Below are positions 9,468-58,776 of a stretch of 64,000 bases of DNA, piece by piece. The position numbers were made by a program, and so were the translations under genes. The first letter of the stretch is position 1, and every line of letters starts with the position of its first letter. The notes below the pieces were generated by a model. The model did no database searches. It saw only the letters and a list, made by a program, of their open reading frames with translations, and had not been told where the DNA came from. This stretch comes from Candidatus Uhrbacteria bacterium (GTDB lineage Bacteria > Patescibacteriota > Patescibacteriia > UBA9934 > GWF2-40-263): positions 32,147 to 96,146 of the forward strand of contig JACRJU010000010.1 of NCBI GenBank assembly GCA_016219925.1. Reading direction: 5' to 3'.

Positions 9468-10094
9468 ATGCGACGAGCTTTTGCCTTTCTGCTCATCACC
9501 CTTTCCGTTGCGGCTTTGCCGTTTGCTGGATTGGCGTACTCGAGCAACATTTGCAAAGGCCCGACCTGTGATGTCTCCGAGGTGGGACGATTTATGGAAG
9601 GGATTACGCGCGAATGTGGAAACCTGGGCAACTGCTCGATCAATGATATTTTGATGGTGTTTGCCAATGCAGGAAACTTCGCCGTCGGCATTGTGGGAGC
9701 GCTTGTGCTTCTCATGTATGTGATCGGGGGAATGTACATGCTTTCTTCAGCAGGATCTTCGGACCGAGTCGCAAAAGGAAAAAAATATCTCACCATCTCA
9801 ACAACGGGGCTCCTCATTGTCGTCTTTGCTTATATTGGCATTAAGACGCTCGAATCGGTTTTGAGAACAGCCGGAGGCGAGGGTGACTTCGTCGAGGCTT
9901 GCACCGAGTCAACGATCGGCCAGCCTTGCGGACCGTCCAAACAATGTTTTCAAGCTGATGGTGCGTCAAGTGTTTCCTGTATCTCAAACTGTGAAGCTTT
10001 TACTCCAGGGGCGAGTTGCAAAAATGCTTCAAATCCTGCATGTATTTCAGGATTATGCCCTGGAGAAGCCGTGTGTTGTCCTCCAACGCCTTAA
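9468..10094 (+). CDS. TrbC/VirB2-like pilin family paralog 1 with Cys-rich C-terminal extension
   Basis: Signal peptide, conserved two-helix core 'LLMYVIGGMYMLSSAGSSDRVAKGKKYLTISTTGLLIVVFAYIGI', then about 70 aa with at least 12 Cys. Confidence 0.55.
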   Translation: MRRAFAFLLITLSVAALPFAGLAYSSNICKGPTCDVSEVGRFMEGITRECGNLGNCSINDILMVFANAGNFAVGIVGALVLLMYVIGGMYMLSSAGSSDRVAKGKKYLTISTTGLLIVVFAYIGIKTLESVLRTAGGEGDFVEACTESTIGQPCGPSKQCFQADGASSVSCISNCEAFTPGASCKNASNPACISGLCPGEAVCCPPTP

Positions 10095-10104
10095 TCCCAT
10101 TGCT

Positions 10105-10470
10105 ATGAAACTTTTTTTAAAACGATTAACTCTCCTTCTGTGGATTTGGTCCATGCCCCTTATGGCATTCGCCGCCGACCCGGCAGAAAAAAAATTGTTT
10201 AATCCTCTTGGAACTACGAGCATTCAAGCGGTGATCGCCCGGCTCATCAAAGCTTTGCTTGGACTTAGCGGAAGCATCGCCCTTCTGATGTTTGTGTGGG
10301 GAGGATTCTTGTGGCTTAGCTCTCGAGGGGAAACCAAACAAATCGAAAAAGGGAAAGAAACCATCAAATGGGCCACTTTCGGGCTCGTTATTATTTTTAC
10401 TGCCTACATTTTGGTTGGAGCAATCATTGGTGCGCTGATAAAAGGAACAGCTGTAGAGGCCCCAAGCTAG
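10105..10470 (+). CDS. TrbC/VirB2-like pilin family paralog 2
   Basis: Signal peptide then 'WGGFLWLSSRGETKQIEKGKETIKWATFGLVIIFTAYILVGAI'. Start set at the internal ATG that gives a signal peptide. Confidence 0.55.
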   Translation: MKLFLKRLTLLLWIWSMPLMAFAADPAEKKLFNPLGTTSIQAVIARLIKALLGLSGSIALLMFVWGGFLWLSSRGETKQIEKGKETIKWATFGLVIIFTAYILVGAIIGALIKGTAVEAPS

Positions 10471-10564
10471 CCGTGTGGATAAGCAGAGTTCTTTCTTCCC
10501 AAAAAAACGAGTAAAATACCTATAACCTTTCAATCATTTAACTTTTAAGGAGGCAACAATTTCT

Positions 10565-11023
10565 ATGACCATGGTACAGAAAAAATATCTCGGTTATGCG
10601 CTGGGAGCCGCCGTAGCCCTGCTCATTGCCGCGCCGATCGTGCTGGGAGGCGCACACAACGCTCTCGCTGCCCCCGGGCCACTTACAAAGGATGAGCTTT
10701 TCGGTGGCAAGGGTAAAACAGGCGATACATTTGCGGCAAATGCCGGACTTGGAAATGCGAACCTGATCGATACGATTTCTTCGATCATTCGCGTAGCTCT
10801 TGGTTTCCTCGGTGTGATTGCAGTGGTGATCATCCTGCTTGGTGGATTCAAGTGGATGACCTCGGGCGGAAACGATACCAAAGTTGGTGAGGCTAAAAAG
10901 CTCATCTTCGCAGGCATCATTGGATTGGTGATTGTGTTATCCGCATACGCGATCGCGAATTTCGTTATCGGCCAAATCGCGGGCGTCACCTCTAATCCTG
11001 TCCCTCCTGTCGGTGCTGGCTAA
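10565..11023 (+). CDS. TrbC/VirB2-like pilin family paralog 3
   Basis: 'LGGFKWMTSGGNDTKVGEAKKLIFAGIIGLVIVLSAYAIANFVI'. Confidence 0.55.
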   Translation: MTMVQKKYLGYALGAAVALLIAAPIVLGGAHNALAAPGPLTKDELFGGKGKTGDTFAANAGLGNANLIDTISSIIRVALGFLGVIAVVIILLGGFKWMTSGGNDTKVGEAKKLIFAGIIGLVIVLSAYAIANFVIGQIAGVTSNPVPPVGAG

Positions 11024-11105
11024 TGACTCATGCCCCCATCCCCCATCTTTTGGATGGGGGTTTGCGTAAGCTGATGAGAGGATTCGTCTGCTTACGCAAA
11101 TATTT

Positions 11106-11504
11106 ATGCAACGTTTTTTCTTGCGCATCGGCGCTCCAGCGATCATCTTTCTTTTGAGCGCCCCGTCTGCTTTGGCAGAGTCCGAAGCGGCAAAAGCGCT
11201 AAAGGGCGGACTCACAGATACCGCCAAGTTGGCTGGCTACCAATCAACATCTTTGCCTGTCATCATTGGAAATGTCATCAAGGCTTTGTTGGGTGTGGTC
11301 GGTATTATTTTCCTTTTGATTACCATCTATGCCGGTATTATGTATATGACGGCCGCGGGAGATACCGGAAAAGTCGACAAAGCAAAAAAAATGCTCACGC
11401 AATCGCTTATTGGCCTGGTGATCATCATAGGCGCCTATGCCTTTGCCAATTTCGTTGTGACTCAACTGGCTGTAGCAACAACGGCGGCACCAGTAAAAAA
11501 ATAG
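11106..11504 (+). CDS. TrbC/VirB2-like pilin family paralog 4
   Basis: 'YAGIMYMTAAGDTGKVDKAKKMLTQSLIGLVIIIGAYAFANFVV'. Confidence 0.55.
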   Translation: MQRFFLRIGAPAIIFLLSAPSALAESEAAKALKGGLTDTAKLAGYQSTSLPVIIGNVIKALLGVVGIIFLLITIYAGIMYMTAAGDTGKVDKAKKMLTQSLIGLVIIIGAYAFANFVVTQLAVATTAAPVKK

Positions 11505-11505
11505 T

Positions 11506-11901
11506 ATGAAAACCTTTTCAAGATGGCTGCTCATCGGAATATTTGTCTTGCTTCCAGTTTCTGCCTGGGCCGGCCTTCTTGATTCGCAACTAAGTACCGT
11601 AGGCAGTCAATTAGGAAAAGACGGTGGGGTCCCAACGAGTCTCCCCGTATTTATCGGTGGACTCATTAATGTCGTTTTATCGGTTCTTGGTCTCGTCTTT
11701 CTCGTTCTCATCGTGTATGCTGGATACATGTGGATGACGGCTTCAGGCGATTCAACCAAAGTTGATAAGGCCAAAAAACTTATTGGACAGGCTCTCATCG
11801 GCATGATCATTGTTATCGCTTCCTATGCGATCAGCGCGTTCGTGATCGACCGAATTTCAGGCGCAATTACGGTAGCGCCGGCGGCAGCCCCCACAAAATA
11901 A
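11506..11901 (+). CDS. TrbC/VirB2-like pilin family paralog 5
   Basis: 'YAGYMWMTASGDSTKVDKAKKLIGQALIGMIIVIASYAISAFVI'. Confidence 0.55.
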   Translation: MKTFSRWLLIGIFVLLPVSAWAGLLDSQLSTVGSQLGKDGGVPTSLPVFIGGLINVVLSVLGLVFLVLIVYAGYMWMTASGDSTKVDKAKKLIGQALIGMIIVIASYAISAFVIDRISGAITVAPAAAPTK

Positions 11902-11923
11902 CTTTCTTGAATCTTAATTATCT

Positions 11924-12316
11924 ATGAAAAATCTCTACTACACTTTCAGCGCCTGGATTTCCGTCTTGGGCCTGTCGCTTTTGCCGGCAAGCGCCATGGC
12001 TCAACTTAAACCATCAACAGATGCGGCGAGTGATCTTGGTAAGATCGGCAAGAAACTCGGCAACGAGACTCCAAACGATCTTCCAAACCTCATTGGCGGA
12101 CTCATCAACATGTTCCTTTCGATTCTCGGCATCGTCTTTGTGGTGCTGGTGATCTATGCCGGATACCTTTGGATGACGGCATCTGGCGACGCTACTAAAG
12201 TTGATAAAGCCAAAAAACTGCTTGGCCAGGCCATCATTGGAATCATCATTATTGTGGCGGCCTACGCGATCAGCACGTTCGTTATTAATAGGATCGTCGG
12301 AGCGGTTAAACCGTAG
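11924..12316 (+). CDS. TrbC/VirB2-like pilin family paralog 6
   Basis: 'YAGYLWMTASGDATKVDKAKKLLGQAIIGIIIIVAAYAISTFVI'. Confidence 0.55.
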   Translation: MKNLYYTFSAWISVLGLSLLPASAMAQLKPSTDAASDLGKIGKKLGNETPNDLPNLIGGLINMFLSILGIVFVVLVIYAGYLWMTASGDATKVDKAKKLLGQAIIGIIIIVAAYAISTFVINRIVGAVKP

Positions 12317-12328
12317 ATTTAAAAAAGG

Positions 12329-12356
12329 CAGAGCCGCGAGGCTCTGTTTTTATTTT
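12329..12356 (+). terminator. Rho-independent terminator after the pilin paralog array
   Basis: Hairpin cagagcc-gcga-ggctctg followed by tttttatttt. Confidence 0.6.
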
Positions 12357-12414
12357 GAAAATAAACATCCCCTGACCGACTCCACGTGAGGTGGATATCG
12401 ACCAGGGGATAGGA

Positions 12415-13344
12415 TCAGCGCTTCCACCCGTTAGTGGCGTGGGTGATGCGCCGATCAAGGCTCTCGACGCGGTCGAGTTCGACCCGGACCGCGTTGCCCC
12501 ACAGAGTCTGGGGCGGCAGGCCGGGGATCTCGACCAGACTGCCGGTCGGAGCCAGGTAGATGATCTCGATGCGGTCGCGTGGGCCGACCGCCGAGATATA
12601 GAGCTCGTCGTAGGCGGCCGGGGCGACCGCGCTGTACGGGGTGCGGTCCGGACGACCGTCCCCATCGAGATCGGCGTAGACCGTCTCGATCGAGCCATCC
12701 GCATTGCCGATCGGGATGGCAACCCCGTTGCGCTTCACGAGAACCCGCGAGAATTGGGGGTTTCGGTGGGTGTGCCAGCTGACCCCACTGGCAAGCCCGA
12801 AGACTTGCAAGTAGGGGCCAACCACCTCGAAGGTCGTGGCGGCGTATGCCCCTGGGGTCGGGATGACCCTGTAGGGCGCGCCACCGACCATCATCGTGGA
12901 CGGTGGTAGGCCTGCGGGCGGACGGTGGTAGGCCTGCGGCTCGGCTGGTTGAGCCTTGCCGTCCTTCGCCTTCCGATCGCGGAGCGTCCGAAGACGCGCC
13001 TTGATCTGCTGCCTGGCTGTGCCAGCGGCAGGCAGCTCCGGCTGCTTGGCGTCCGGCACTGCCTGCTGGGACGCGAGCTTGGCTTTGGTCGCCTCGAGCT
13101 CCTGACGGAGCCGATCGACTTCGGCCTTGAGCCCGCTCTCGCCGGCTTTGAGCCGCGCCTCCAGGATCTTCACGTTCTGATCCTGGATGCACAGCAGTTG
13201 CTTGAGGCGGGCACTCGAGTCGGTTCCGGCGTAGCGGGCCTCGCAGAATGCGACGGCCTGCTTCGCTTCCTTCGACTCTTCAGCGTGCAGGGTGGCGGGG
13301 ACGAACAGGAACAGGGCGGCCGCGATGGCCATTTCGAACTTCAT
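12415..13344 (-). CDS. Secreted coiled-coil protein of unknown function (high-GC island 1)
   Basis: Signal peptide 'MKFEMAIAAALFLFVPATLHA', a coiled-coil stretch, then a C-terminal domain of unknown family. Strong GC-rich third-position bias. Antisense ORFs in the same region are Arg/Pro/Gly-rich junk. Confidence 0.5.
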   Translation of the reverse strand: MKFEMAIAAALFLFVPATLHAEESKEAKQAVAFCEARYAGTDSSARLKQLLCIQDQNVKILEARLKAGESGLKAEVDRLRQELEATKAKLASQQAVPDAKQPELPAAGTARQQIKARLRTLRDRKAKDGKAQPAEPQAYHRPPAGLPPSTMMVGGAPYRVIPTPGAYAATTFEVVGPYLQVFGLASGVSWHTHRNPQFSRVLVKRNGVAIPIGNADGSIETVYADLDGDGRPDRTPYSAVAPAAYDELYISAVGPRDRIEIIYLAPTGSLVEIPGLPPQTLWGNAVRVELDRVESLDRRITHATNGWKR

Positions 13345-13419
13345 GGATTTCTCCTTGTGGTCGGACGTGCCGACCGTCTTCGTCTTTCGAGACGGCCGGC
13401 ACGGACCACCCGAGCCGAC

Positions 13420-14055
13420 CTACTTGCGGTGAACTCGGAGGAGCTCGTTGAGGTCGCGGCGGTTGCACGCCGCTTCCTCTGCGGGGTTGGCGGGCGGGCG
13501 ACCACCAGGGCACTGGCTCGTGCTCGCGGGCGCGAGCGCTTGCGGAGGTGGCGGGCCGTAGTAACCCGGGGCGACCGCTTCACCGAGCGGCGGGAGGTAG
13601 CCTCTGGCTCCTGCCCGCCATCCAGCCTCGATCATGGTCGTCTCCTGGCTGGCTCCCGGATAGTAGACAGCCTGACCGTACGGCCCGTAGCCGCCGGCGG
13701 CGTAGGGGTAGGCCCCCATGCCGTACGGCCCGTAAGCGCCGTAGTAGCCCGTGTACCCGGAGGTCACCTGACCTCCGCGGGTGCTCACCTGCGTGGGCAC
13801 CCCCTTGTCAACCGACGCGCGGGCCGTTGCGGCCGCGCGCTCGGCCGCATCGCCGTCATGACGCGTACGCTCGAGCTGGTCGGCGGCGGCAAGGAGCGCT
13901 GCCGCTCCCCCGGTGGTGGCCAGATCCTGGTGGACCTGGACCGAACCGATGACCCGACCGCTTGCGTCGGTGAGGTCGCGCTTGAGCGCGACGCTCGCGC
14001 ATCCCGTGAGGGCGGCGAGCACGATGGCGAGGATGGTCTTCATCTGCTTCTCCAT
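13420..14055 (-). CDS. Lipoprotein with Gly/Tyr-rich repeat region (high-GC island 1)
   Basis: Lipobox 'LAALTGC'. Low-complexity 'YTGYYGAYGPYGMGAYPYAAGGYGPYG'. Same strand and same composition as the downstream gene. Confidence 0.5.
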   Translation of the reverse strand: MEKQMKTILAIVLAALTGCASVALKRDLTDASGRVIGSVQVHQDLATTGGAAALLAAADQLERTRHDGDAAERAAATARASVDKGVPTQVSTRGGQVTSGYTGYYGAYGPYGMGAYPYAAGGYGPYGQAVYYPGASQETTMIEAGWRAGARGYLPPLGEAVAPGYYGPPPPQALAPASTSQCPGGRPPANPAEEAACNRRDLNELLRVHRK

Positions 14056-14210
14056 GTCGACTCGCCTGCGGCTGCCGACTCAATTGCCCTGAAAAGGACG
14101 GTTTGTCCCAATTTGGGAACGTAGAAATATACCATAAAATTGCCTTTTTGTCAATAAATCCAACGAAAAAACGCCCTTTTAGGACGTTTCCTCAAACATT
14201 TAAAAACGGG

Positions 14211-15497
14211 CTAACGCAAGTATCCCCAATTATGCAAAAGATCCGAATCTCTCTCCCAACGGTCCCCGATATCCGTGCGGTAATACATATTAGGCACCAT
14301 GACGTTTTGCACACGGTTATACACCTGTTGTTGGGCGGCCTTCATCGTGGCCCCAGTCCCGGCAACCGTCATCACCGCCCCGGCATGCCCAGCCACAACC
14401 CACTGACCGTTTAACACTTTCACCTCCTCAATATGAATCCCATCAAGCGTGTTGCGGCGCAGATAAATCGCGGCATCTTTTGAGTACGTTTCAAATGCTT
14501 TATGGTCATCAAACGGATATGGCGGCGTGCGCAAACGGACTCCGACCTGGAACCCTTTTTTTGTTTTGATCGCAAAGCTCTCACGATTGGCTAGCCGATA
14601 GAGGAGCTCGGACATGGGCATGAGCAGTCCCTCGTGCTGGATCGAAATCGTCGGGTAACCAAAACGGCTTGTGAACTCAAGCGGATAAATGCCGTTCCCG
14701 TTGACGATACAGTTAAGATCGAAGTAGCCAACATATCCCTCGCGCGAAAGCGTCTCTTCCATTTTTAGAAGCGTGGCGTTGAACAATCGGTTGGGCTCGG
14801 ACCAATACATGGACGTTCCCATTTCCCCAGTCGAGATCCCGAGGTTCCCAGGAAATAATTTTTTGTGCTCAAAGTTGATGTTAATCGGGGACAAAAACCG
14901 ACTGCCATTAAAGAACGCTCCAACGGCCACTTCCACACCGGAAACGTGTTTTTGTAGTTGAAACACTTTGATCTTTTTAAGCCACACCCGCTTATACGCC
15001 TCCATAATGCCAATGACATCACTGCCGTCGTCTTCCGTACCGACAAATAGAAGGCGTTTGAGGTTGGCCGCCTCGCCGCTTGGCTTGAACACATAGCGTC
15101 CGGGATGCGCGCGGACATATGCAATGGCCTCATCAAAATCCGCGAAGGTTTGATAAGACAAAATCGGAATGCCATGCTTTTTAAGCTCTTCTTGACCAAA
15201 ACCGCGATCATCTTCGAGCTGGTCGGTGTAAGCCGTCCCTCCGATCACCGCTTTGCCGGTGCGGCGCAGACGATCCGCTTTGGCTCCCAAGCCAAGCACA
15301 TCGTCAAACACAACCACATCTGCCCAATCCACCTCCTTCTTCCAATCCTCTACCTTTTCGATGAGCCCATCGCCGACGTCCTGTGACGCATCAGAGTCAA
15401 CGTACATCTTCACGCGGTGACCCTCACGACTCACCTGCCAGGCTACATCGACACACAAGGCATCGAGTGTGACAAACAAAAAATTTTTCGAGTCCAT
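14211..15497 (-). CDS. ATP-grasp enzyme, phosphoribosylamine--glycine ligase (PurD)-like
   Basis: 'YVFKPSGEAANLKR', 'GYVGYFDLNCIVNGNGIYPLEFTSRFGYP' parallel PurD 'IVIKADGLAAGKG...GFLYAGLM...KVIEFNCRFGDPE'. Host-like GC. Confidence 0.5.
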   Translation of the reverse strand: MDSKNFLFVTLDALCVDVAWQVSREGHRVKMYVDSDASQDVGDGLIEKVEDWKKEVDWADVVVFDDVLGLGAKADRLRRTGKAVIGGTAYTDQLEDDRGFGQEELKKHGIPILSYQTFADFDEAIAYVRAHPGRYVFKPSGEAANLKRLLFVGTEDDGSDVIGIMEAYKRVWLKKIKVFQLQKHVSGVEVAVGAFFNGSRFLSPININFEHKKLFPGNLGISTGEMGTSMYWSEPNRLFNATLLKMEETLSREGYVGYFDLNCIVNGNGIYPLEFTSRFGYPTISIQHEGLLMPMSELLYRLANRESFAIKTKKGFQVGVRLRTPPYPFDDHKAFETYSKDAAIYLRRNTLDGIHIEEVKVLNGQWVVAGHAGAVMTVAGTGATMKAAQQQVYNRVQNVMVPNMYYRTDIGDRWERDSDLLHNWGYLR

Positions 15498-15532
15498 ATA
15501 TGTTGGTCATTATAGACGCATGAAAATGGAAG

Positions 15533-15591
15533 TCAAAAAATTCTGTAAAAGAAAACGACGGCAGCAATCCTTGGGAAGGAAAGCTGCCGTC
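15533..15591 (-). terminator. Rho-independent terminator downstream of the island-2 gene (minus strand)
   Basis: On the minus strand, 9-bp stem gacggcagc/gctgccgtc is followed by a T-rich run. Confidence 0.5.
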
Positions 15592-15599
15592 AGAAGCGG

Positions 15600-17600
15600 C
15601 TACTTGCAGCCGAAGGCCTGACGACCTTCATAGCTAAGCGCCGCGCAGTCGACTCCGTTGGTGTGCGTGTGCGGCTTGGAAGCCGAACGCGCGCTGGACG
15701 AAGTCGGGGGCGTCGTGGCGAAGGGGTCCATCGTGTGGTGACCCACGAACCACGGAACGCTCACCGCGACCATGAGTGCGCAGAGGAAGACCGCGAGGTG
15801 GCCCACCAGGGGGTTACTCCCTTGAGTCACGTTCAGGATCGATCCTGACTGCACCCGTGTCTGTGCGAGCCGGCGCACGAGCCAGTACCCGGGCAGGTAC
15901 ACGAGCGTGAAGAGGACCGCGCTCGCAACCCACTGATGAGTCCCGAGGAAGCTGAGGCTTGCACCCCAGGCCGCGACAGTCGCGCCCCAGACGGCTTGCG
16001 GCCATCCGTGACGGATCATCCAGTCTGCGGCGATGATCCCGATCGTCACCAGCCACCCGTACTGCGCGCCCCGAAGAGCAAGCAGTTGGGCCTTGGCCGG
16101 CGCGCCCGCGACCTTGAAGCCCATCCCGATGCACACGCCGACGAAGGCGAGGCCCAGGATGACGACGCGTGCGCTGAGCGACACACCGACCTCCGGGATG
16201 AGGCCCAGAGCGATCAGGTACGCCGGCATCAGCATGAAGGTGAACCTCCAGCCGAATTCGGCGAGCCAATCGGCGGGCCACCCGAGCACACTGACAACCA
16301 GGGGGTGGAGCAGACGCTGCCAGATCCGCAGCGTAAAAAACATGATGATCAGCACCGTCGCGCAGATGATCGCGCGCAGGCTGTGGTACATGCTCGGGGC
16401 ACTGAAGAGGCTCGAGAGCATCCACCAGAACGCCGTGAGGAACATCACCACGGTCGCCAGGTTGAACACCACGATCCCGACCGCCGAGCCGTAGAGCAGG
16501 GCTTTGAGGGTCCCGCTCATGGCGCCGCGGTTGTGCCAGGCGCTCGAAGCGCCGCGCAGGGCCTTGTGCCAGAGCGTGAGCTCCGCACCCAAGGCCGTGT
16601 CGAACGCGGCGATGATGTCGTCGAGATCTTCGGGGTTGAACCGGTCCTCGGGGGTCGCACGCGGATTGTAGTACTCCGCGAGCGTCCTGAGAAACGGCAC
16701 GCCCTTCTTGTCGACGACGTCCTTGACGATGTCCTCGCGCAGGGCGTACTGCAGGGCCGTTCCCTGCCGCACGCTGCGGCTGATGAGCAGGAAGAAGCGC
16801 CGAACCTCGGGTCCGACCGCCTCCCACCACTCGGCGGGCTTCCTCAGAAGACCCTCGAGGATCTTGAGCTCTACGGCGCTGACGCGCTGGGTATCCCCCA
16901 TCTGCGCGATCGCTTCCGCGAGCTTCAGGACCTCGTGCGGGAAGGACTCGGCCGGCACACGCTCGGTGCGAGGCTGTTGGCCCTTGCCACCGCCGACCTG
17001 CTTGGTCGTGGCTTTGTGGGTGTCATCCCAGACGCTCTTGTAGAGCGCCCAGGTCGGATCCAGGATGACGGGCACCTGGTCGGCACCCACCCGAATCTTG
17101 CCGTCAGAGTCCCGGGCCGGAACGAAGATCTTACCCGGAACGAGCCGGCTGACAACAACCCAGTCAAGAGTCTGGTTGGCATCAGCGTCTGCGACGCCGG
17201 GGTCGGAGCGGGCCGCGTCGACCTCGCGATCGATCTGGCTCGCGGCATCCGCGTACCCGGTGAACACGCCCAACAGGGCGTGTGGGCCAACCTCCTTGAG
17301 GAGGAGCTTGGCCTCGCGAACGACCGGACGGGTGTCGCCCGGAAGAATCCGCTCGACGAAGTCGCTCTTCTTGAGCAAGGCCGCGACGGCCGAGCCCGCG
17401 AGTGGGAGGGTGAACCCGGGCATGGTGCGCGCCAGGGCCATGACCGGCCCGGCCGCTCCGAAGATGCCCTTGAGCGACCGCTTGGCGATCGCCTTGCCGG
17501 ACTCTCCAGCACCCGCACCCTCGGTGAGCTCGCGCTCGAGGTGCTGGTGCACGGCCTGTTCGGCGGCCTCTTCGGCCATCAATCGAAGAAACTCGTTCAT
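15600..17600 (-). CDS. Large polytopic membrane protein of unknown function (high-GC island 2)
   Basis: 666 aa. A soluble N-terminal domain of about 350 aa is followed by about 7-9 hydrophobic helices. GGAG RBS upstream. Very GC-rich. Confidence 0.5.
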   Translation of the reverse strand: MNEFLRLMAEEAAEQAVHQHLERELTEGAGAGESGKAIAKRSLKGIFGAAGPVMALARTMPGFTLPLAGSAVAALLKKSDFVERILPGDTRPVVREAKLLLKEVGPHALLGVFTGYADAASQIDREVDAARSDPGVADADANQTLDWVVVSRLVPGKIFVPARDSDGKIRVGADQVPVILDPTWALYKSVWDDTHKATTKQVGGGKGQQPRTERVPAESFPHEVLKLAEAIAQMGDTQRVSAVELKILEGLLRKPAEWWEAVGPEVRRFFLLISRSVRQGTALQYALREDIVKDVVDKKGVPFLRTLAEYYNPRATPEDRFNPEDLDDIIAAFDTALGAELTLWHKALRGASSAWHNRGAMSGTLKALLYGSAVGIVVFNLATVVMFLTAFWWMLSSLFSAPSMYHSLRAIICATVLIIMFFTLRIWQRLLHPLVVSVLGWPADWLAEFGWRFTFMLMPAYLIALGLIPEVGVSLSARVVILGLAFVGVCIGMGFKVAGAPAKAQLLALRGAQYGWLVTIGIIAADWMIRHGWPQAVWGATVAAWGASLSFLGTHQWVASAVLFTLVYLPGYWLVRRLAQTRVQSGSILNVTQGSNPLVGHLAVFLCALMVAVSVPWFVGHHTMDPFATTPPTSSSARSASKPHTHTNGVDCAALSYEGRQAFGCK

Positions 17601-17776
17601 CTCTATCTCCTGTGCGGCTCTTGGCCGCGCAATGGGTTTGGAACACGTGAAAAGGGCGAAAAAAACCTTTTCTCCAATGCGCGTTGCCGCACACAGAAGG
17701 GACTTTTATATCATATTTCGGCCGTTTTGTCAACGGCCAATGACTCATTTTTCTTAAATTCCTTCATAAGTCACCC

Positions 17777-17851
17777 AGTGGGTAATAAGAGATTTGTGAC
17801 CTTGTCTTCGGGCCGACGGACTCATCGCCGTCGTTCCCTCCGACATGGTCA
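17777..17851. repeat. 75-bp palindromic element with perfect 15-bp terminal inverted repeats
   Basis: aagagatttgtgacc (17777-17791) and ggtcacaaatctctt (17837-17851) are exact reverse complements. The spacer holds an internal cgacgg/ccgtcg stem. Confidence 0.6.
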
Positions 17852-17979
17852 CAAATCTCTTTAGGGCTGTGAAGAATAAACGAGTCACAGCCAGTGGGGA
17901 GGCGGCCATGGGGCCCCCACTGACCTTCTCTTTGTGGGCTTCAAGCGAACCCAAGCGGGTGGTCGAAAAGACAAAAGGG

Positions 17980-19152
17980 TTATTTGAATTCAGACGCACG
18001 ACGCTTCTCCTGAATCATTTTGGTTATAATCGGCCGATCGGTGTTGCGCCCGACAAGCACGGCGCCAATAAGCTGGCCTGCCCGAGAAAAAAGTTGTGTG
18101 ATGCCTCCCTGCTCAACCGAACCCACCAACCGAACTTCATCGGCATGCGCGCGCGACACATCACCCACAAAAATAATTTCCAAACCAAGAGCGTTTGTGG
18201 CGTAAGAAGAAACCAAAGAGAACACAGTCTTCTCCCCAGCCATATTCTTTGCCACCACACGTCCCTGCATCTGCGCATTCATCCAGTTACCCACGCGCAC
18301 ATGACGGCCAACATTGATATCGTAAAACTCGGCCACATCGCCAGCCGCAAAAATGTTTGGCTCTGATGTCTGTAAAAATTCATCACACACGATGCCCGCC
18401 TCAACCTTCACTCCTGCTTCGCGCAACCATCCATCATCCGATTCGATCCCAATTCCCACTCCAAGAATGGTGCAAGGATGCTCACCGAGCGAACTGATAA
18501 ATCCGGTGAGTTCGCGCTCCCCCATGGTATCGACAAAAAGTCCGCCCGGATGGAGCTCAACACCCTTCTTGATTAAATGTTGATTGATAAGACGCCCCAC
18601 TTCGGGCTCGAGCCCTTTAGACCAAAAATGGTTTCCTCGAAAAATAACGGTTGTCGGGATCCCAAAATGGGCAAACAAGTTGATGTACTCACAGGCGATA
18701 AACCCACCGCCGTAAACGCCGCCACGGCAAGATGATCCCTGCTCGGCAAGTAGTTGATTCAAATGATCCGCGTCATCAAGCGTACGTAAATAAGAGACAC
18801 CGCGCACATCCAATCCGAGAGTACGCAGTTCGCCTCCGGTTGCGATGAGTAGTTTGTCATAGGGGAGTTCGCGGCCATCTGAGAGTTCGACGAAGGTATT
18901 TTTCGGGTCCAGTTTTACAACCGAAATTCCGCGCACCCACTCAATCTTTTGTTCTTCATACCACGACTCTTTCTTCAAAAAGACCCGCTCGCGCGGAATT
19001 TTCCCTTTCAAATAATGCGGCAACAGCACCCGCGAATAGAGGGCGTGCTGTTCCTCACTCACAAGCGTAATCTCATCGCTGGAATCGAGCTTGCGCAATT
19101 CTTCCACGGCCGTTGTTCCGGCAATGCCTCCGCCGATGATGAGATAGCGCAT
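17980..19152 (-). CDS. FAD-dependent pyridine nucleotide-disulfide oxidoreductase (ferredoxin/rubredoxin reductase-like)
   Basis: 'MRYLIIGGGIAGTTAVEELRK' is a Rossmann GxGxxG fold with two dinucleotide-binding regions. Start trimmed to the internal ATG at 19152. Confidence 0.75.
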   Translation of the reverse strand: MRYLIIGGGIAGTTAVEELRKLDSSDEITLVSEEQHALYSRVLLPHYLKGKIPRERVFLKKESWYEEQKIEWVRGISVVKLDPKNTFVELSDGRELPYDKLLIATGGELRTLGLDVRGVSYLRTLDDADHLNQLLAEQGSSCRGGVYGGGFIACEYINLFAHFGIPTTVIFRGNHFWSKGLEPEVGRLINQHLIKKGVELHPGGLFVDTMGERELTGFISSLGEHPCTILGVGIGIESDDGWLREAGVKVEAGIVCDEFLQTSEPNIFAAGDVAEFYDINVGRHVRVGNWMNAQMQGRVVAKNMAGEKTVFSLVSSYATNALGLEIIFVGDVSRAHADEVRLVGSVEQGGITQLFSRAGQLIGAVLVGRNTDRPIITKMIQEKRRASEFK

Positions 19153-32535: not shown

Positions 32536-33927
32536 TTAATAGGTGTAGAGTTTTTGTTTGATCAGTTCAAGATCGTGTTGAAGTTTTTCATCCGCCACAA
32601 GACAATTACAGATTTTTTCATAGGCGTGCATAGCTGTTGTGTGGTCTCGTCCTCCAAGTTCTGTTCCAATAGATGGATAACTCGCTTTCATTTCCTCACG
32701 CATGAGATACATGATAATTTGTCTTGGAAACGCCAGCCGTTTTTGGCGGCTCGCTCCAAGCAGGTCAACGATTTGGACATCGAAATATCCAGCGACTGTC
32801 TGAATAAGCTGTTTGGGGGTAACGGTTTTTCTTGTGTTTGAAGGAGTGAAGCTTGAGAGGATTGGTTTTACAGAATCAAGAGTTGCGCGGGTGTTTTTGA
32901 ATTGATGAAACGCGATAATTTTGTTAAGGGCTCCTTCAAGTTCTCGAACGTTCGTTTGGACAACACTTGCGATGTGATGAACGATGTCGTGTTCGAGTGC
33001 GTAAGTTTTTTCTCGGCACTTGGTTTCTAAAATTGCTACACGTGTTTCAAAATCTGGAGAGCCCACGTCGGCCATCATTCCCTGCTCAAATCTTGAGATA
33101 AGCCGGCTTTCAAGTTGGGGGATGGCTTTTGGTGGACGATCTGAAGAGATCACGATCTGCTTGTTATTTTGGTAGAGCTGGTTGAATGTGTGAAAAAACT
33201 CTTCCTGCGTTCCCTCTTTTCCAGTCATAAACTGGATGTCGTCAACCAATAGAACATCAACCGTTCGGTAACGATTTTTAAACTCAACCATCCGCCCCCC
33301 CTTAAGCGCCCCAATGAAATCATTGGTAAAACGCTCGCTTGTGACATATAAAATGCGCGTTTGTGGGCTTTTTCGTATAAGTTCGTTGCCAACCGCTTGT
33401 AAAAGGTGGGTTTTTCCAAGGCCGACACCACCATAGATAAACAAGGGGTTGTAGACGCCTCCTGGCTGTGCACACACAGCTTGAGCGGCGGCGTGGGCCA
33501 GCTCATTTTGTTTGCCAACAATGAACGTTCCAAAACAGTACTTTCCATTAAGAGAAAATTCCCCTGTGCGAATTTCTTGAGGTTCGTGACTGGTTCTGGG
33601 TTGGTACCCGTCTGATGTTGGTGGTTCGTTCTGCGAAGACCCATCGAACAGCGGAATAATTTGTTGAGGAGCTTGTTGGCGCGCTTCCACGCGGTACGTC
33701 AACTGTTTGATTGTTCCGTTCGTGAGATCCTGCAAAGACTGCATGATTTCTTTTGAATACTTCTTTTCTAGCCAGGCTTTTGTAAAAAGATTCGGAACTC
33801 CAACGATAATGGCATGATCACGCACTTCTGAAATAAAAGTTTGTTTAAACCAGGTGGTGAAATTTGCTTTACTCAATGACAATTCGAGTTCGCCAAGAAC
33901 CGCTTGCCAGAGTTCGTTGGTGTTCAT
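32536..33927 (-). CDS. dnaA: Chromosomal replication initiator DnaA
   Basis: 'GGVGLGKTHLLQAVG', 'VDVLLVDDIQF', C-terminal 'RDHTTAMHAYEKI'. Start at internal ATG 'MNTNELWQ'. Confidence 0.9.
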   Translation of the reverse strand: MNTNELWQAVLGELELSLSKANFTTWFKQTFISEVRDHAIIVGVPNLFTKAWLEKKYSKEIMQSLQDLTNGTIKQLTYRVEARQQAPQQIIPLFDGSSQNEPPTSDGYQPRTSHEPQEIRTGEFSLNGKYCFGTFIVGKQNELAHAAAQAVCAQPGGVYNPLFIYGGVGLGKTHLLQAVGNELIRKSPQTRILYVTSERFTNDFIGALKGGRMVEFKNRYRTVDVLLVDDIQFMTGKEGTQEEFFHTFNQLYQNNKQIVISSDRPPKAIPQLESRLISRFEQGMMADVGSPDFETRVAILETKCREKTYALEHDIVHHIASVVQTNVRELEGALNKIIAFHQFKNTRATLDSVKPILSSFTPSNTRKTVTPKQLIQTVAGYFDVQIVDLLGASRQKRLAFPRQIIMYLMREEMKASYPSIGTELGGRDHTTAMHAYEKICNCLVADEKLQHDLELIKQKLYTY

Positions 33928-33990
33928 ACGGGGCGTAGTGTAGACTACTTGTCCACATGTGAGCAAGTGCGTGTTTCGTGTACAAAGGGG

Positions 33991-52777: not shown

Positions 52778-52858
52778 ATAAATTGAGCTCTTCATTCCTG
52801 CTGGAAGCGGTTGCTTTCAGAGCGCGGGGGTGGGGTAACAACTTACCGGAGGAGAGGC

Positions 52859-53194
52859 ATGATCGACCTGACAGCCGCTACCTTCGACGGGGTCGTCAAG
52901 AAACACCCCGTCATTCTCGTCGACTTCTGGGCGGCTTGGTGTGCACCTTGCCGCGCCATGATGCCGGTCATCAGTGGGCTCGCGGAGGCCATGCCCGATC
53001 TGGTGATCGGCAAGGTCGACATCGACCCCGAGCTCGAGTTGGCGACGCGCTTTAGGATCAGCGCGATCCCCACGCTCATGTTCATCGTCGAGGGACACGA
53101 GGTTGCGCGCCTCACTGGGGCCACGTCGTTGCCCAAGCTCATCGCTTGGGTGCGCGAGCACCAGGGCGCCGTGGAGACGAACCCGAACACGTAG
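52859..53194 (+). CDS. trxA: Thioredoxin (high-GC island 3)
   Basis: 'VDFWAAWCAPCRAM', 'SAIPTLMF'. GGAGAGG RBS. About 65% GC. Confidence 0.8.
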   Translation: MIDLTAATFDGVVKKHPVILVDFWAAWCAPCRAMMPVISGLAEAMPDLVIGKVDIDPELELATRFRISAIPTLMFIVEGHEVARLTGATSLPKLIAWVREHQGAVETNPNT

Positions 53195-54245: not shown

Positions 54246-55226
54246 ATGGCACACGTGACCCATCGCGATCTGCTCTTTCCCATCGTCGTGAAGTTCTGGG
54301 GGGTCCGCGGATCCTTCCCGACCAGCGACGTCCGGATCGGCGGGCACACGACATGCCTGACGCTCCAGTTCCCCGACCAACTCATCATCTTCGACACGGG
54401 TTCGGGGATGATCGACCTTGGCAACCATCTGCTCGAGCCGGCGCTCGTGCCTGGAACGACCCTCAAAGACATCGAGGTGTTCACCAAGGTCTGGCTCGGC
54501 CAGACTGGCAACAAGCCCGAGGATCTCGGGCGCGCTCTGCAGGAGCGGTTCCAGGGCAAGAACGGCGGGGTCAACGCGACCGTGATCCACAGCCACGTCC
54601 ACAAGGATCACCTCGACGGGCTCACGGCGTTCAAGCCCGTGTTCCGTCCGGACACGGAGCTCACCTTCATCGGCTCGCGCCACAATGATCTGACGATCGA
54701 GCAGGTCATGGAGCGCTTCGTGTTCACCCCGCCGGTGTTTCCGGTGCCCTGGAAGGTCCTGGGGTCGAGGCGCACCATGCGCGAGATCGCTCCGTCGGGC
54801 GACACCTTCACGATCCCCTGCGCGGTCGGCGACGACATCCGTGTGCGGATGCTGCCGATGAACCACCCCAACCAAGCCTACGGGTACCGGTTCGAGTGGG
54901 GCGGTCGTGTGATCGCGGTCACGCTCGACCACGAGCACGGTCACGACTTCGACCGCAACGTCGTCGAGCTCGCGGACAACGCCGACCTGTGGATCACCGA
55001 GGCGCAGTACACCGATGCGCAGTACGCGCGGTGCAAGGGCTTCGGCCACATCAGCGAGACCGCGGCCGCCGCGCACGCCAAGGCGGCCAAGCCCCGGCTC
55101 GTCTACACGACCCACCACGATCCGGACGCCGGCTTCGACGATGTCCAGCAGATCGCGCGCACCATCCAGGAGTTCTCGGGCGTCGAAGCTCGGTACGCCT
55201 GGCAGGGTAGCGAGGTCCACGTCTGA
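54246..55226 (+). CDS. MBL-fold metallo-hydrolase (high-GC island 4)
   Basis: 'VIHSHVHKDHLDG' HxHxDH motif, plus downstream His/Asp ligands. AGGGAGG RBS. Confidence 0.7.
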   Translation: MAHVTHRDLLFPIVVKFWGVRGSFPTSDVRIGGHTTCLTLQFPDQLIIFDTGSGMIDLGNHLLEPALVPGTTLKDIEVFTKVWLGQTGNKPEDLGRALQERFQGKNGGVNATVIHSHVHKDHLDGLTAFKPVFRPDTELTFIGSRHNDLTIEQVMERFVFTPPVFPVPWKVLGSRRTMREIAPSGDTFTIPCAVGDDIRVRMLPMNHPNQAYGYRFEWGGRVIAVTLDHEHGHDFDRNVVELADNADLWITEAQYTDAQYARCKGFGHISETAAAAHAKAAKPRLVYTTHHDPDAGFDDVQQIARTIQEFSGVEARYAWQGSEVHV

Positions 55227-57173: not shown

Positions 57174-57249
57174 GGCGGCCATGGTGAAACGGTTATCACA
57201 GCAGGTTGTGGTCCTGTCGTTACGGGTTCGATTCCCGTTGGCCGCCCCA
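57174..57249 (+). tRNA. tRNA-His (anticodon GTG) with encoded G-1 and CCA
   Basis: G-1 + gcggcca...tggccgc-c-cca. Anticodon stem gcagg/cctgt with loop ttGTGgt. T-arm acggg-ttcgatt-cccgt. Confidence 0.75.
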
Positions 57250-57303
57250 CACAAAACCCCCGGCTTTTGCCTGGGGTTTTGTGTGAGAGATAAGAATCGA
57301 ACC

Positions 57304-57322: not shown

Positions 57323-57423
57323 ACGGGTACGATGCTTGAAGTGAGCGAGCGGAGAGGCCGAGCGGAGCTCGGACTATCCCGAGCGAGCGAGAGCAATATG
57401 GGCGCCAGCCCATATTCCCGTTG

Positions 57424-57447
57424 GCCGCCCCACAAAATAGACCCCAG
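57424..57447. repeat. Direct repeat of the tRNA-His 3' end (att-like), embedded in a long hairpin
   Basis: attcccgttggccgccccaca-aaa matches 57231-57251. Forms cccgttggcc...ggccaacggg (57427-57489) enclosing acaaaatagacccca/tggggtctattttgt. Confidence 0.6.
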
Positions 57448-58732: not shown

Positions 58733-58776
58733 GCCGCCCCCCCACAACGTCAGCGCACACTCGCGCTGACACGCTC

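What the first reader, a model, noticed from the sequence alone, without database searches (positions are those of the whole stretch)
15595..17605. High-GC island 2: 666-aa protein with a large soluble N-domain fused to a polytopic membrane domain, unknown family
Single minus-strand gene with a GGAG RBS. The N-terminal ~350 aa are hydrophilic with no motif I recognise. The C-terminal ~300 aa form about 7-9 transmembrane helices rich in Trp and Gly. It ends in a short Cys-containing tail ('GVDCAALSYEGRQAFGCK'). A strong terminator follows (15533-15591). The 5' side carries a nested hairpin leader (ctgtgcggc...gccgcacacag enclosing gcgcaatgg/ccaatgcgc, 17611-17690). It is compositionally foreign like island 1, with only the host ATP-grasp gene between them, so islands 1 and 2 may be parts of one acquired function, such as a membrane receptor or transporter plus its exported partners.
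Basis: partly seen in the sequence, partly recalled or inferred. Interest (0 to 1): 0.6.

Follow-up and report, generated by a model that had tools for sequence, protein, structure and literature searches.

The report
Native GC-rich orphan envelope gene
The 666-residue gene is real and belongs to an uncharacterised membrane-protein family found only in a small group of ultra-small (Patescibacteria) bacteria; it is not a recent foreign import, because it sits at the same place in every related genome examined and has stayed unusually GC-rich there.

Summary
The gene is at 15600-17600 (minus strand), encodes 666 aa and has a promoter, an AGGAG ribosome-binding site, a structured leader and a strong terminator. 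Its GC is 0.66 and GC3 0.85, against about 0.50 in neighbouring genes. The genome is a Candidatus Uhrbacteria MAG (locus tag HZA85_01670).

No Pfam, NCBIfam, PHROGs, PADLOC or PDB match was found by sequence or by fold. The family has only 56 representatives among 1.84 billion protein clusters.

The predicted topology is a roughly 360-aa cytoplasmic N-domain, seven membrane helices, and an external Pro/Thr-rich tail ending in a conserved Cys-x12-Cys loop.

The link to island 1 is supported. Eleven distinct related loci were examined, plus one contig known only from its gene list. In every one that extends far enough downstream, the gene is followed by a Tyr/Gly-rich lipoprotein gene and a secreted-protein gene. 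In most of these, a converging array of VirB2-like pilin genes comes next. Island 1's real genes are on the minus strand.

"Acquired" is not supported. The three genes are syntenic in all relatives, and the target gene is GC3-elevated in 11 of 11 loci. Synonymous sites are saturated, and the GC shift stops at the coding-sequence boundaries.

An approximately 100-nt leader that pairs with the ribosome-binding site is conserved and matches no Rfam family.

The function is inferred, not shown: a lineage-specific, fast-evolving envelope module.

The parts
17705..17733 (-). Sigma-70-type promoter of the target gene: TTGACA (17733-17728), 17-nt spacer, TATAAA (17710-17705)
   Evidence: Read directly from the sequence. 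The same TTGACA-N17-TATAAN lies upstream of the orthologue in L002, L005, L006, L008, L009, L010, L011 and L012; L001 has TTGACA-N17-TACCTT. The scan did not list it because its -10 rule requires a T at position 6.
17601..17700 (-). Conserved, structured 5' leader of about 100 nt. The anti-SD CUUCU (17699-17695) and UGUGCGG pair with CCGCACAGGAG, which contains the SD AGGAG (17611-17607). Inside are a CGCGC/GCGCG helix and a variable hairpin.
   Evidence: MFE -36.8 kcal/mol, z -3.6, with the SD paired. The same long-range stem appears in 6 of 7 individual MFE folds. The sequence blocks are invariant across loci. Covariance model R1 finds the leader in 8 loci, including L009, which was not used to build it (E 4.6e-9), and only weak antisense echoes elsewhere in the window. 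No Rfam hit. Covariation is not significant.
16521..17600 (-). Codons 1-360: cytoplasmic N-terminal domain. It comprises two helical bundles around a small beta subdomain, with the conserved motif W-D-x-T-H-K-A-T-T-[KR]-Q-V-G-G-G-K-G.
   Evidence: AlphaFold2 model with mean pLDDT 84. Invariant residues. No signal peptide or preceding membrane helix. No fold match.
15744..16514 (-). Codons 363-619: membrane domain. Seven family-conserved hydrophobic helices (370-396, 409-429, 456-470, 474-492, 515-529, 558-574, 601-615) plus one amphipathic helix (533-554).
   Evidence: Family-averaged hydropathy and the positive-inside count: inside loops carry K+R of 3.3, 2.8 and 3.4; outside loops 0.6, 0.2 and about 0.9. 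AlphaFold helices.
15603..15743 (-). Codons 620-666: predicted external Pro/Thr/Ser-rich tether ending in the conserved D-C-x2-L-[SN]-x7-G-C-[PK] loop (C652, C665)
   Evidence: Alignments A1 and A2: both Cys are present in at least 90% of 44 members. The linker has pLDDT below 50. Topology.
15547..15592 (-). Intrinsic terminator of the target gene: a 10-bp G+C-rich stem with an inner 5-bp stem, followed by UUUUCUUUU
   Evidence: Fold energy -25.8 kcal/mol, z -5.0, with 0 of 200 shuffles as stable.
14211..15497 (-). Interleaved gene with host-like composition, not part of the module: a divergent PurD-like ATP-grasp with its own promoter (15536-15509) and terminator (14194-14164)
   Evidence: Pfam GARS_A and GARS_C. 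The TIGR00877 score is 104 against a cutoff of 288. GC3 0.59. It is 79-86% identical to its orthologues in L002 and L008 and absent between the module genes in L001, L009, L013 and the P0064 contig. Promoter and terminator.
13420..14055 (-). Partner 1 (island 1): a 211-aa lipoprotein with lipobox LTGC, a Tyr/Gly-rich low-complexity core and a C-terminal Cys-x15-Cys. Its promoter is at 14154-14126.
   Evidence: Translation and GC3 of 0.82 in this frame. Homologues follow the target gene in L001, L002, L008, L009, L013 and, at the contig ends, L010 and L011. Promoter.
12415..13344 (-). Partner 2 (island 1): a 309-aa secreted protein with a signal peptide, a conserved Cys34/Cys52 pair, a coiled coil, a Pro-rich linker and a C-terminal beta domain carrying a DLDGDGRPD motif. 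Its terminator is at 12346-12329.
9468..12316 (+). Converging array of five VirB2-like pilin genes of ordinary GC: 9468-10094, 10565-11023, 11106-11504, 11506-11901 and 11924-12316
   Evidence: Pfam PF18895 T4SS_pilin and PF04956 TrbC. The same arrangement occurs downstream of the module in L001, L009, L013 and the P0064 contig.

Best explanation
The gene encodes a member of an uncharacterised, vertically inherited membrane-protein family restricted to a Uhrbacteria-related clade of Patescibacteria.

Shown:
- It is a native, syntenic gene, not a recent island.
- It evolves 3-8 times faster at the protein level than its neighbours.
- It is consistently accompanied by a Tyr/Gly-rich lipoprotein gene and a secreted coiled-coil/beta-domain protein gene.
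- All three genes, and only their coding sequences, are held at a much higher GC3 than the rest of each genome.
- The gene has its own consensus promoter, a conserved leader that pairs with its ribosome-binding site, and a strong terminator.

Inferred:
- The protein has a cytoplasmic N-domain of about 360 aa and seven membrane helices.
- It presents a flexible Pro/Thr-rich tether outside the cell, ending in a disulfide-closed Cys-x12-Cys loop.
- Through this tail and its outer loops it docks the lipoprotein and the secreted protein, each of which also has a conserved Cys pair. Together they form a surface-exposed envelope complex next to the VirB2-like pilin array. The most plausible role is anchoring or assembling a surface structure used in cell-cell or host contact.
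- The N-domain couples this complex to the cytoplasm.
- The leader sets expression, either by stabilising the mRNA as a 5'-terminal stem-loop or by gating translation through ribosome-binding-site sequestration.
- The GC3 excess is an equilibrium maintained by a force specific to the coding sequences (selection on the mRNA or codons, or targeted GC-biased repair or conversion), not a relic of transfer.
For: Identity and rarity:
- The protein is 100% identical to HZA85_01670. Word-index searches found only 9 homologues, and an exhaustive HMMER scan of 1.84 billion representatives found 56. Nearly all are about 660-820 aa and align end to end.

Synteny:
- The order IscS-NifU-ferredoxin-(FAD reductase)-target holds in all 11 distinct loci (the reductase is missing in L013), including the most distant homologue fetched (L010, E 2.8e-8).
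- The lipoprotein and secreted-protein homologues lie downstream in L001, L002, L008, L009 and L013. The P0064 contig (gene list only, no DNA) has two genes of matching size at that position. A pilin array follows in L001, L009, L013, the P0064 contig and the window.

Evolutionary rate:
- Flanking proteins are 65-89% identical between the window and related loci, against 41-53% for the three module genes.
- Target dN is 0.5-0.6, against 0.07-0.28 for the flanks.
- For the close pair L005/L006, dN/dS is 0.16 for the target and 0.02-0.11 for the flanks. This indicates purifying but relaxed selection.

Composition:
- Target GC3 exceeds flank GC3 by 0.14-0.385 in 11 of 11 loci and correlates with host GC3 (rho 0.77, p 0.005).
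- Flank pS is 0.69-0.78 in most gene comparisons (0.65 at the lowest), i.e. at or near saturation.
- The shift is confined to coding sequences. The interleaved ATP-grasp gene and the intergenic regions have host-like composition. Leader GC is 0.44-0.54.

Topology.

Cys pairs in all three proteins.

Separate transcription units.

Leader.
Against: - No experiment and no homology bears on function. Physical interaction among the three proteins is inferred only from gene neighbourhood, shared composition and shared Cys pairs.
- The pilin array may be a mere neighbour. Pilin arrays are common in Patescibacteria and often stand alone (PMC12102498). L010 and L012 show a different gene immediately downstream.
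- The target is equally tightly syntenic with the upstream Fe-S/ferredoxin/reductase genes, so neighbourhood alone does not select the envelope reading.
- The topology rests on hydropathy and the positive-inside rule. AlphaFold draws eight helices, which would put the tail inside the cell.
- Leader helices show no significant covariation because the core pairs never vary.
- Other GC3-rich genes in the window look cytoplasmic: an MBL-fold hydrolase, a thioredoxin-like ORF and an unknown protein of about 350 aa. The GC3 signature is therefore not specific to exported proteins and is weak as evidence of shared function.
Confidence: 0.4

Rival explanations
1. One reading: islands 1 and 2 are a recently acquired foreign cassette from a GC-rich donor, encoding a receptor or transporter plus exported partners. 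The high GC would be un-ameliorated donor composition.
For: GC 0.66 and GC3 0.85 against about 0.50 in the rest of the window. Codon usage resembles a generic high-GC bacterium, with CGG, AGG, GGG and CCC also raised. The amino-acid composition is mildly shifted towards Gly/Ala/Arg/Pro. Another GC-rich gene in the window (about 57.6-58.7 kb) lies beside tRNA-His and is flanked by repeats of the tRNA 3' end. At least that island may therefore be truly integrated.
Against: The target occupies the same syntenic slot in 11 of 11 loci from genomes whose flanking genes are synonymously saturated. The GC3 offset persists in all of them and scales with the host GC3. The interleaved ATP-grasp gene and every promoter, leader and terminator have host-like composition. 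There is no integrase, tRNA or flanking repeat at 11.9-18 kb. Every homologue whose context was fetched lies at this same locus.
Confidence: 0.05
2. The protein is the missing polytopic channel or platform component (a VirB6/TrbL/PrgH analogue) for the adjacent VirB2-like pilins. The lipoprotein and the secreted protein would play VirB7-like and VirB8/VirB5-like roles.
For: A pilin array of three to six genes (five in the window) converges on the module in the window, L001, L009, L013 and the P0064 contig. The protein is polytopic and Trp-rich with a large soluble domain. VirB6 homologues are reported as scarce or undetectable in some Patescibacteria classes, which the authors attribute to extreme divergence (PMC12102498). 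VirB7 is described there as a small, fast-evolving lipoprotein.
Confidence: 0.12
3. The protein works with the upstream Fe-S/ferredoxin/FAD-dependent disulfide-reductase genes. It would act as a membrane relay passing reducing or oxidising equivalents, or iron/sulfur, to external Cys pairs in its own tail, the lipoprotein and the secreted protein.
For: IscS-NifU-ferredoxin lies immediately upstream in all 11 loci, and the pyridine-nucleotide-disulfide oxidoreductase in 10 of them. A VIT1 iron-transporter gene is also nearby in the window, L009, L010 and L011. All three module proteins have conserved Cys pairs. A GC3-rich thioredoxin-like ORF lies elsewhere in the window.
Against: The target has its own conserved promoter and leader, so it is a separate transcription unit. 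The reductase is missing in L013. No Cys or His is conserved inside the membrane helices, as it is in DsbD, CcdA, DsbB or VKOR; only the tail cysteines are conserved. There are no cofactor-binding motifs and no fold match.
Confidence: 0.1
4. The protein is a seven-helix sensor or signal transducer. The external tail and loops would sense a ligand or cell contact, and the N-domain would be a new cytoplasmic output domain. The neighbours would be unrelated surface proteins.
For: The predicted seven-helix topology with a large cytoplasmic domain. There are conserved charged residues within or at the ends of the membrane helices (R478, D526, R530) and a conserved motif in the N-domain.
Against: The output domain matches no known signalling domain: no kinase, cyclase, HD or GGDEF hit. 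The orientation is the reverse of known bacterial 7TM receptors, which have an external N-terminus and a cytoplasmic C-terminal output; this point rests on general knowledge. The tight co-inheritance and shared composition with the two exported partners would be left unexplained.
Confidence: 0.08

Closest known systems
VirB6/TrbL/PrgH polytopic components of type IV secretion systems, and the VirB2-like pilin arrays of Patescibacteria (PMC12102498)
   Same: A polytopic, Trp-rich inner-membrane protein with a large soluble domain, encoded next to an array of VirB2-like pilin genes. A small, fast-evolving lipoprotein (VirB7-like in concept) accompanies it.
   Different: There is no sequence match to PF04610 or any T4SS profile in any of the 44 members. 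There is no structural match to solved T4SS subunits. No VirB4 or VirD4 gene lies nearby. The soluble domain is N-terminal and cytoplasmic.
Compositionally atypical genomic islands (horizontal-transfer islands as called by GC or codon-usage methods)
   Same: A sharp GC and GC3 jump, codon usage typical of GC-rich bacteria, and genes of unknown function that encode surface proteins.
   Different: The genes are orthologous and syntenic in all related genomes sampled. The offset persists at synonymous saturation and scales with the host GC. The shift is limited to coding sequences, with host-like regulatory DNA and a host-like gene interleaved. There are no mobility genes or flanking repeats.
The Borrelia vls antigenic-variation locus, a GC-rich surface-lipoprotein locus conserved in an AT-rich genome (recalled from general knowledge, not tested here)
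   Same: Fast-evolving surface-protein genes whose GC content is persistently far above the genome's, across species.
   Different: No silent cassettes, paralogous fragments, G-quadruplex motifs or long repeats were found in the window. The genes here are single-copy within the window.
5'-terminal stabilising stem-loops and ribosome-binding-site-sequestering leaders, such as the ompA and S-layer mRNA leaders, RNA thermometers and translational riboswitches (general knowledge)
   Same: A stem starts within a few nucleotides of the predicted 5' end and pairs a CUUCU anti-SD with the SD. The gene also has a consensus promoter and a strong terminator.
   Different: No Rfam family matches. The sequence blocks are specific to this gene family. 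No ligand pocket, thermometer motif or covariation could be demonstrated.

Membership tests
VirB6/TrbL (PF04610) or PrgH T4SS channel subunit | Significant match to the family HMM | tested here: not met
   The target has no Pfam hit at E <= 0.01. None of the 44 family members hits TrbL/VirB6 at E <= 1.
VirB6/TrbL (PF04610) or PrgH T4SS channel subunit | Structural similarity to solved VirB6-type subunits | tested here: not met
VirB6/TrbL (PF04610) or PrgH T4SS channel subunit | Encoded with VirB4 and other T4SS core genes | tested here: not met
   Every ORF of 500 aa or more in the window is accounted for as SpoIID-domain protein, the target, a PBP orthologue, H+-PPase, a Mg-chelatase-like ATPase, PNPase or PolA. 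Only VirB2-like pilins are adjacent.
Horizontally acquired genomic island | Atypical base composition and codon usage | tested here: met
   GC3 is 0.82-0.85 for the three genes, against 0.35-0.60 for about 50 other genes.
Horizontally acquired genomic island | Patchy presence: absent from the same site in close relatives | tested here: not met
   The target is present at the same site in 11 of 11 distinct loci, whose flanking proteins are 70-92% identical.
Horizontally acquired genomic island | Mobility signatures: integrase, tRNA target, flanking direct repeats | tested here: not met
   No tRNA lies between 6.8 and 22.3 kb. No flanking repeats were found in 11.9-18 kb. All neighbours are housekeeping or envelope genes.
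Horizontally acquired genomic island | Closer homologues in a plausible donor lineage | tested here: not met
   The family has 56 representatives. Every one whose context was fetched lies in the same Patescibacteria-type locus.
Known cis-regulatory RNA (Rfam family) | Covariance-model match | tested here: not met
   cmscan of 12000-18500 on both strands at E <= 1 gave no matches.
Structured regulatory RNA (generic) | Base pairs supported by compensatory changes | tested here: inconclusive
   The core helices are invariant. 74% of cells are paired, against 31-58% when the structure is slid, but the covariation score does not exceed the shuffles. Only the variable hairpin shows double changes.
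DsbD/CcdA/DsbB/VKOR-type membrane thiol-redox proteins | Conserved redox Cys pairs within or beside membrane helices | tested here: not met
   Only C652 and C665 in the C-terminal tail are conserved. There is no conserved Cys in the membrane domain and no Pfam hit.
Diversity-generating retroelement target or cassette-based antigenic variation | Template/variable repeat pair or silent paralogous cassettes | tested here: not met
   No long direct repeats were found in 11.9-18 kb. The three genes have no tblastn or blastn self-matches elsewhere in the window, and there are no G4 motifs. The rest of the genome was not available.

The most novel reading that the evidence does not exclude
The three genes are examples of a so far undescribed class of native Patescibacteria genes. 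Their coding sequences alone would be held, over long evolutionary time and in many lineages, at a GC3 equilibrium far above the genome's by a gene-specific force. Candidates are selection on mRNA stability or codon choice, or targeted GC-biased repair or conversion. Compositional 'islands' in these genomes need not then be horizontal transfers.

The 7-TM protein would be the membrane anchor of a new surface apparatus, made of the lipoprotein, the secreted protein and possibly the VirB2-like pili. Its expression would be gated by a new leader RNA that sequesters the ribosome-binding site.
Probability: 0.25. Interest if true: 0.75.

Novelty: categorically new. Interest (0 to 1): 0.55.

Why it matters
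There are three reasons.

1. Composition-based island calling attributes up to about 13% of Patescibacteria genome length to horizontal transfer (PMC12455944). This locus shows that a sharp, codon-level GC island can instead be an old, vertically inherited set of genes kept GC-rich at synonymous saturation. That runs against the usual amelioration logic and points to an unknown gene-specific force acting on coding sequence.

2. The module is a conserved, fast-evolving set of membrane, lipoprotein and secreted proteins. It sits beside the VirB2-like pilin arrays, which were reported essential in the one Patescibacteria strain tested so far (PMC12102498). That makes it a concrete candidate for the poorly understood cell-surface or host-contact machinery of these ultra-small bacteria.

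3. The leader is a well-defined, family-specific RNA element that is more conserved than the protein it precedes. It can be tested directly.

None of this establishes function. The value lies in a clean, testable anomaly rather than a solved mechanism.

Tried and rejected
- **Family searches.** The target, both partners and other GC-rich genes gave nothing in Pfam, NCBIfam, PHROGs or PADLOC, except an MBL-fold hit and a weak thioredoxin hit for two unrelated GC-rich ORFs. Scanning all 44 family members against Pfam at E <= 1 gave only scattered noise.
- **PDB searches.** The profile search of PDB sequences gave nothing below E 0.2.
- **Second homologue search.** Searching with the family profile returned no new sequences.
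- **Locus search.** The 9-sequence alignment found 3 loci, one a duplicate of L001.
- **Search for a regulon.** The metagenome pattern scan for the leader found 13 stretches, only one genuine (L024, the same contig as L011). The other 12 were chance hits in GC-rich DNA. That includes L014, which the covariance model scored at E 4e-4 only because the pattern had pre-selected it. No similar leader precedes the lipoprotein gene.
- **Translational selection as the cause of high GC3.** Judged unlikely. Rare-type codons (CGG, AGG, GGG, CCC) also rise, amino-acid composition shifts, and trigger factor, PNPase and H+-PPase have ordinary GC3.
- **DGR or cassette-type variation.** No repeats, paralogues or G4 motifs were found.
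- **Tree congruence between target and flanks.** The correlation is only moderate (Spearman 0.57), because flank identities are compressed at 0.70-0.83. It is not decisive either way.
- **My own errors.** The translation used for the ~57.6-kb gene was one base out of frame, so those numbers for that gene are void. One structure string for pair counting was misregistered and rejected.


Full report
**1. Observation**

The minus-strand ORF at 15600-17600 (ATG start, 666 aa) is present as described. It is identical to NCBI hypothetical protein HZA85_01670 of a Candidatus Uhrbacteria bacterium MAG.

Its GC is 0.661, with GC1 0.66, GC2 0.47 and GC3 0.85. Neighbouring genes have GC 0.49-0.51 and GC3 0.48-0.59. 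Across the window GC3 is bimodal. About 50 genes lie at 0.35-0.60. Five lie at 0.82-0.94: the target, the two island-1 genes, an MBL-fold gene at 54246-55226, and an unknown gene at about 57.6-58.7 kb.

- AGGAG at 17611-17607.
- A terminator hairpin at 15592-15556 followed by a U-run (-25.8 kcal/mol, z -5.0).
- A nested leader hairpin (-36.8 kcal/mol, z -3.6).
- In addition, a near-perfect promoter, TTGACA-N17-TATAAA, at 17733-17705.

The 642-aa plus-strand ORF that overlaps the gene is an antisense artefact of the high GC.

**2. What the protein is**

Pfam, NCBIfam, PHROGs and PADLOC gave no hit.
- A word-indexed search of 5.8 billion proteins found 9 full-length homologues at 36-45% identity.
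- An exhaustive HMMER scan of 1.84 billion cluster representatives found 56, mostly 660-820 aa and aligned end to end.
- The named ones are Uhrbacteria or "Parcubacteria".
- No family member hits any Pfam family consistently, even at E <= 1.
- A family profile finds nothing among PDB sequences.

Family-averaged hydropathy gives seven hydrophobic helices. The positive-inside rule fits an N-in/C-out topology. Inside loops carry 2.8-3.4 Lys+Arg; outside loops carry 0.2-0.9. The helix at 533-554 that AlphaFold also draws is amphipathic in the family.

The model is therefore:
- a cytoplasmic N-domain of about 360 aa, made of two helical bundles around a small beta subdomain and carrying the invariant W..THK.TT motif;
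- seven membrane helices;
- an external, disordered Pro/Thr/Ser-rich tether;
- a terminal D-C-x2-L-[SN]-x7-G-C-[PK] loop whose two Cys are conserved in at least 90% of members.

**3. Surroundings and the link to island 1**

Island 1's genes are on the minus strand. One runs 14055-13420 (211 aa), with lipobox LTGC, a Tyr/Gly-rich core and a C-terminal Cys-x15-Cys. The other runs 13344-12415 (309 aa), with a signal peptide, a Cys34/Cys52 pair, a coiled coil, a Pro-rich linker and a beta domain.
- In these frames GC3 is 0.82. The plus-strand ORFs have GC1 greater than GC3.
- NCBI annotates the 309-aa protein as HZA85_01655.
- Each unit has its own promoter and terminator on the minus strand.

In related contigs the order is IscS, NifU, ferredoxin, FAD-dependent disulfide reductase, then the target. 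This holds in all 11 distinct loci (the reductase is missing in L013). Homologues of the lipoprotein and the secreted protein come next wherever the contig extends far enough. A converging array of three to six VirB2-like pilin genes (five in the window) then follows in the window, L001, L009, L013 and the P0064 contig.

The PurD-like ATP-grasp gene lies between the target and the lipoprotein only in the window, L002 and L008. It has host-like composition there.

The window has five pilin genes, at 9468-12316. Arrays of 2-11 such genes are a known feature of Patescibacteria (PMC12102498). No VirB4-size ATPase is in the window.

**4. Is it foreign?**

The evidence says it is not a recent transfer.
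- Proteins flanking the window's locus are 65-89% identical to their orthologues. The three GC-rich genes are 41-53% identical.
- Target GC3 exceeds flank GC3 in 11 of 11 loci, by 0.14-0.385, and correlates with host GC3 (rho 0.77, p 0.005).
- The two partner genes show the same excess in every locus where they were read.
- Between the window and L002, L008 or L001, flank synonymous differences are at or near saturation (pS 0.69-0.78). The lineages are therefore old enough for any imported composition to have been erased. Yet the target keeps GC3 of about 0.85 in three of them.
- The shift is confined to coding sequence. Promoters, the leader (GC 0.44-0.54 across loci), terminators and the interleaved 1.3-kb ATP-grasp gene all have host-like composition.
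- No tRNA, integrase or flanking repeat borders the region.

The GC excess is therefore an equilibrium held by a gene-specific force. What that force is remains open.
- Translational selection looks unlikely. CGG, AGG, GGG and CCC also rise, amino-acid usage drifts towards Gly/Ala/Arg/Pro, and trigger factor, PNPase and H+-PPase have ordinary GC3.
- Regional biased gene conversion is hard to reconcile with the untouched ATP-grasp gene.
- Cassette-type variation finds no support in the window.
- Selection on the mRNA itself is a coherent idea: GC-rich coding sequences resistant to AU-directed decay, together with a 5'-terminal stem-loop and a strong 3' hairpin. It is untested.

The target evolves fast (dN 0.5-0.6 against 0.07-0.28 for the flanks) but under purifying selection. 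For the close pair L005/L006, dN/dS is 0.16.

**5. The leader**

In most loci a consensus promoter is followed by a leader with these blocks, in order:
- CUUCU (the anti-SD) at or near the predicted 5' end;
- UGUGCGG;
- CGCGC;
- a hairpin of variable sequence;
- GCGCGG, a short loop, then CCGCACAGGAG (containing the SD);
- the start codon 6-9 nt further on.

These blocks are far better conserved than the protein.

In 6 of 7 sequences the individual minimum-energy fold is the same long-range stem burying the SD. RNAalifold prefers three local hairpins enclosed by the anti-SD/SD pairing, so alternative folds exist.

Covariation is not significant, because the core pairs never vary. Only the variable hairpin shows double changes.

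A covariance model recovers the leader in 8 loci, including L009, which was not used to build it (E 4.6e-9). Rfam has no match. A metagenome pattern scan found no further genuine copies in front of other genes.

The element is real and specific to this gene family. Whether it is a stabiliser, a thermometer or a ligand- or protein-controlled switch is unknown.

Gene callers start the ORF inside the leader in L001, L008, L009 and L010.

**6. Mechanism**

Best supported: a native, lineage-specific envelope module. The 7-TM protein anchors or organises the lipoprotein and the secreted protein through its external Cys-loop tail. The pilin array beside it suggests a role in a surface or host-contact structure.

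What is shown is synteny, co-inheritance, shared composition, export signals and Cys pairs. Physical interaction and function are inferred.

The rivals are scored in the Rival explanations section: a VirB6 analogue, a redox or Fe-S-linked relay tied to the upstream operon, a 7-TM sensor, and a recent horizontal island. The last is essentially refuted.

**7. Novelty and verdict**

The protein has no detectable relative outside its own small family and no fold neighbour, so no known kind can be named for it. I file it as categorically new at the family and module level. The caveat is that orphan membrane proteins are common in Patescibacteria and no function is shown.

The most unusual result is the CDS-limited GC3 excess, conserved across orthologues at synonymous saturation.

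Interest is 0.55.

Noticed in passing
window 12391-14124 (+) versus 12415-14055 (-): The long plus-strand ORFs of island 1 (172 aa and 399 aa) are antisense artefacts of the high GC. The real genes are on the minus strand (211-aa lipoprotein, 309-aa secreted protein). This is shown by GC3 of 0.82 in those frames, by homologues in other loci and by NCBI's annotation HZA85_01655.
   Followed up: yes
window 12898-12917 and 12920-12939: A perfect 20-nt tandem direct repeat with a 22-nt period lies inside the linker of the secreted-protein gene. The two copies are read in different frames (PQAYHRP, then AGLPPS). Gain or loss of one unit would frameshift the C-terminal beta domain. It could be a slipped-strand on/off switch or a recent duplication.
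   Followed up: partly
window 54246-55226 (+), 57572-58732 (+), 52811-53194 (+): There are more single-gene GC-rich islets with the same codon usage. They are an MBL-fold hydrolase (GC3 0.90), an unknown protein of about 350 aa (GC3 0.94; likely start at 57674 or 57695) and a small GC-rich thioredoxin-like ORF (GC 0.61-0.69; GC3 not computed). None is obviously exported. Whether their orthologues are also persistently GC-rich was not tested.
   Followed up: partly
window 57175-57249 (tRNA-His); 57240-57251, 57423-57434, 58732-58743: The 3' end of tRNA-His (GGCCGCCCCACA) is repeated 180 nt downstream and again, with one mismatch, right after the stop codon of the GC-rich gene at 57.6-58.7 kb. 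Each of the first two copies is followed by a hairpin. This looks like an integration scar, so that island, unlike the target locus, may be a true insertion.
   Followed up: no
window 32536-33966 (-) and 32-33 kb: A dnaA gene lies next to the lowest-GC kilobase of the window (0.40). The cumulative GC skew reaches its minimum near 29-30 kb. The replication origin is probably here, about 15 kb from the target locus.
   Followed up: no
window 9468-12316 (+): An array of five divergent VirB2-like (PF18895/PF04956) pilin genes with ordinary GC content. Upstream lie envelope genes: an SBP lipoprotein, an NTP-transferase, a Wzx-like flippase, a Wzy_C ligase, a SpoIID-domain protein and a D-Ala-D-Ala carboxypeptidase.
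   Followed up: partly
window 14211-15497 (-): The ATP-grasp gene is a divergent PurD relative (TIGR00877 score 104 against a cutoff of 288). It is present between the module genes only in some lineages (window, L002, L008). Its role in an organism unlikely to make purines is unclear.
   Followed up: no
L006, L007, L008 (record titles): These MAG contigs are titled 'uncultured Gammaproteobacteria bacterium'. They nevertheless carry the same Patescibacteria-type synteny, and their flanking proteins are 64-90% identical to those of the Uhrbacteria window. The taxonomic label is probably wrong.
   Followed up: no
L001 2454, L008 9974, L009 10001, L010 10001: Automatic gene calls start the target orthologue inside its 5' leader. 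The true start follows the conserved CCGCACAGGAG (L001 2514, L008 10001, L009 10109, L010 10061).
   Followed up: yes
window 17787-17806 / 17842-17861: A 20-nt inverted repeat (95% complementary, 35 nt apart) lies in the 250-nt gap between the end of the reductase gene (17980) and the target promoter. It may be the terminator or a processing hairpin of the ISC/reductase operon.
   Followed up: no
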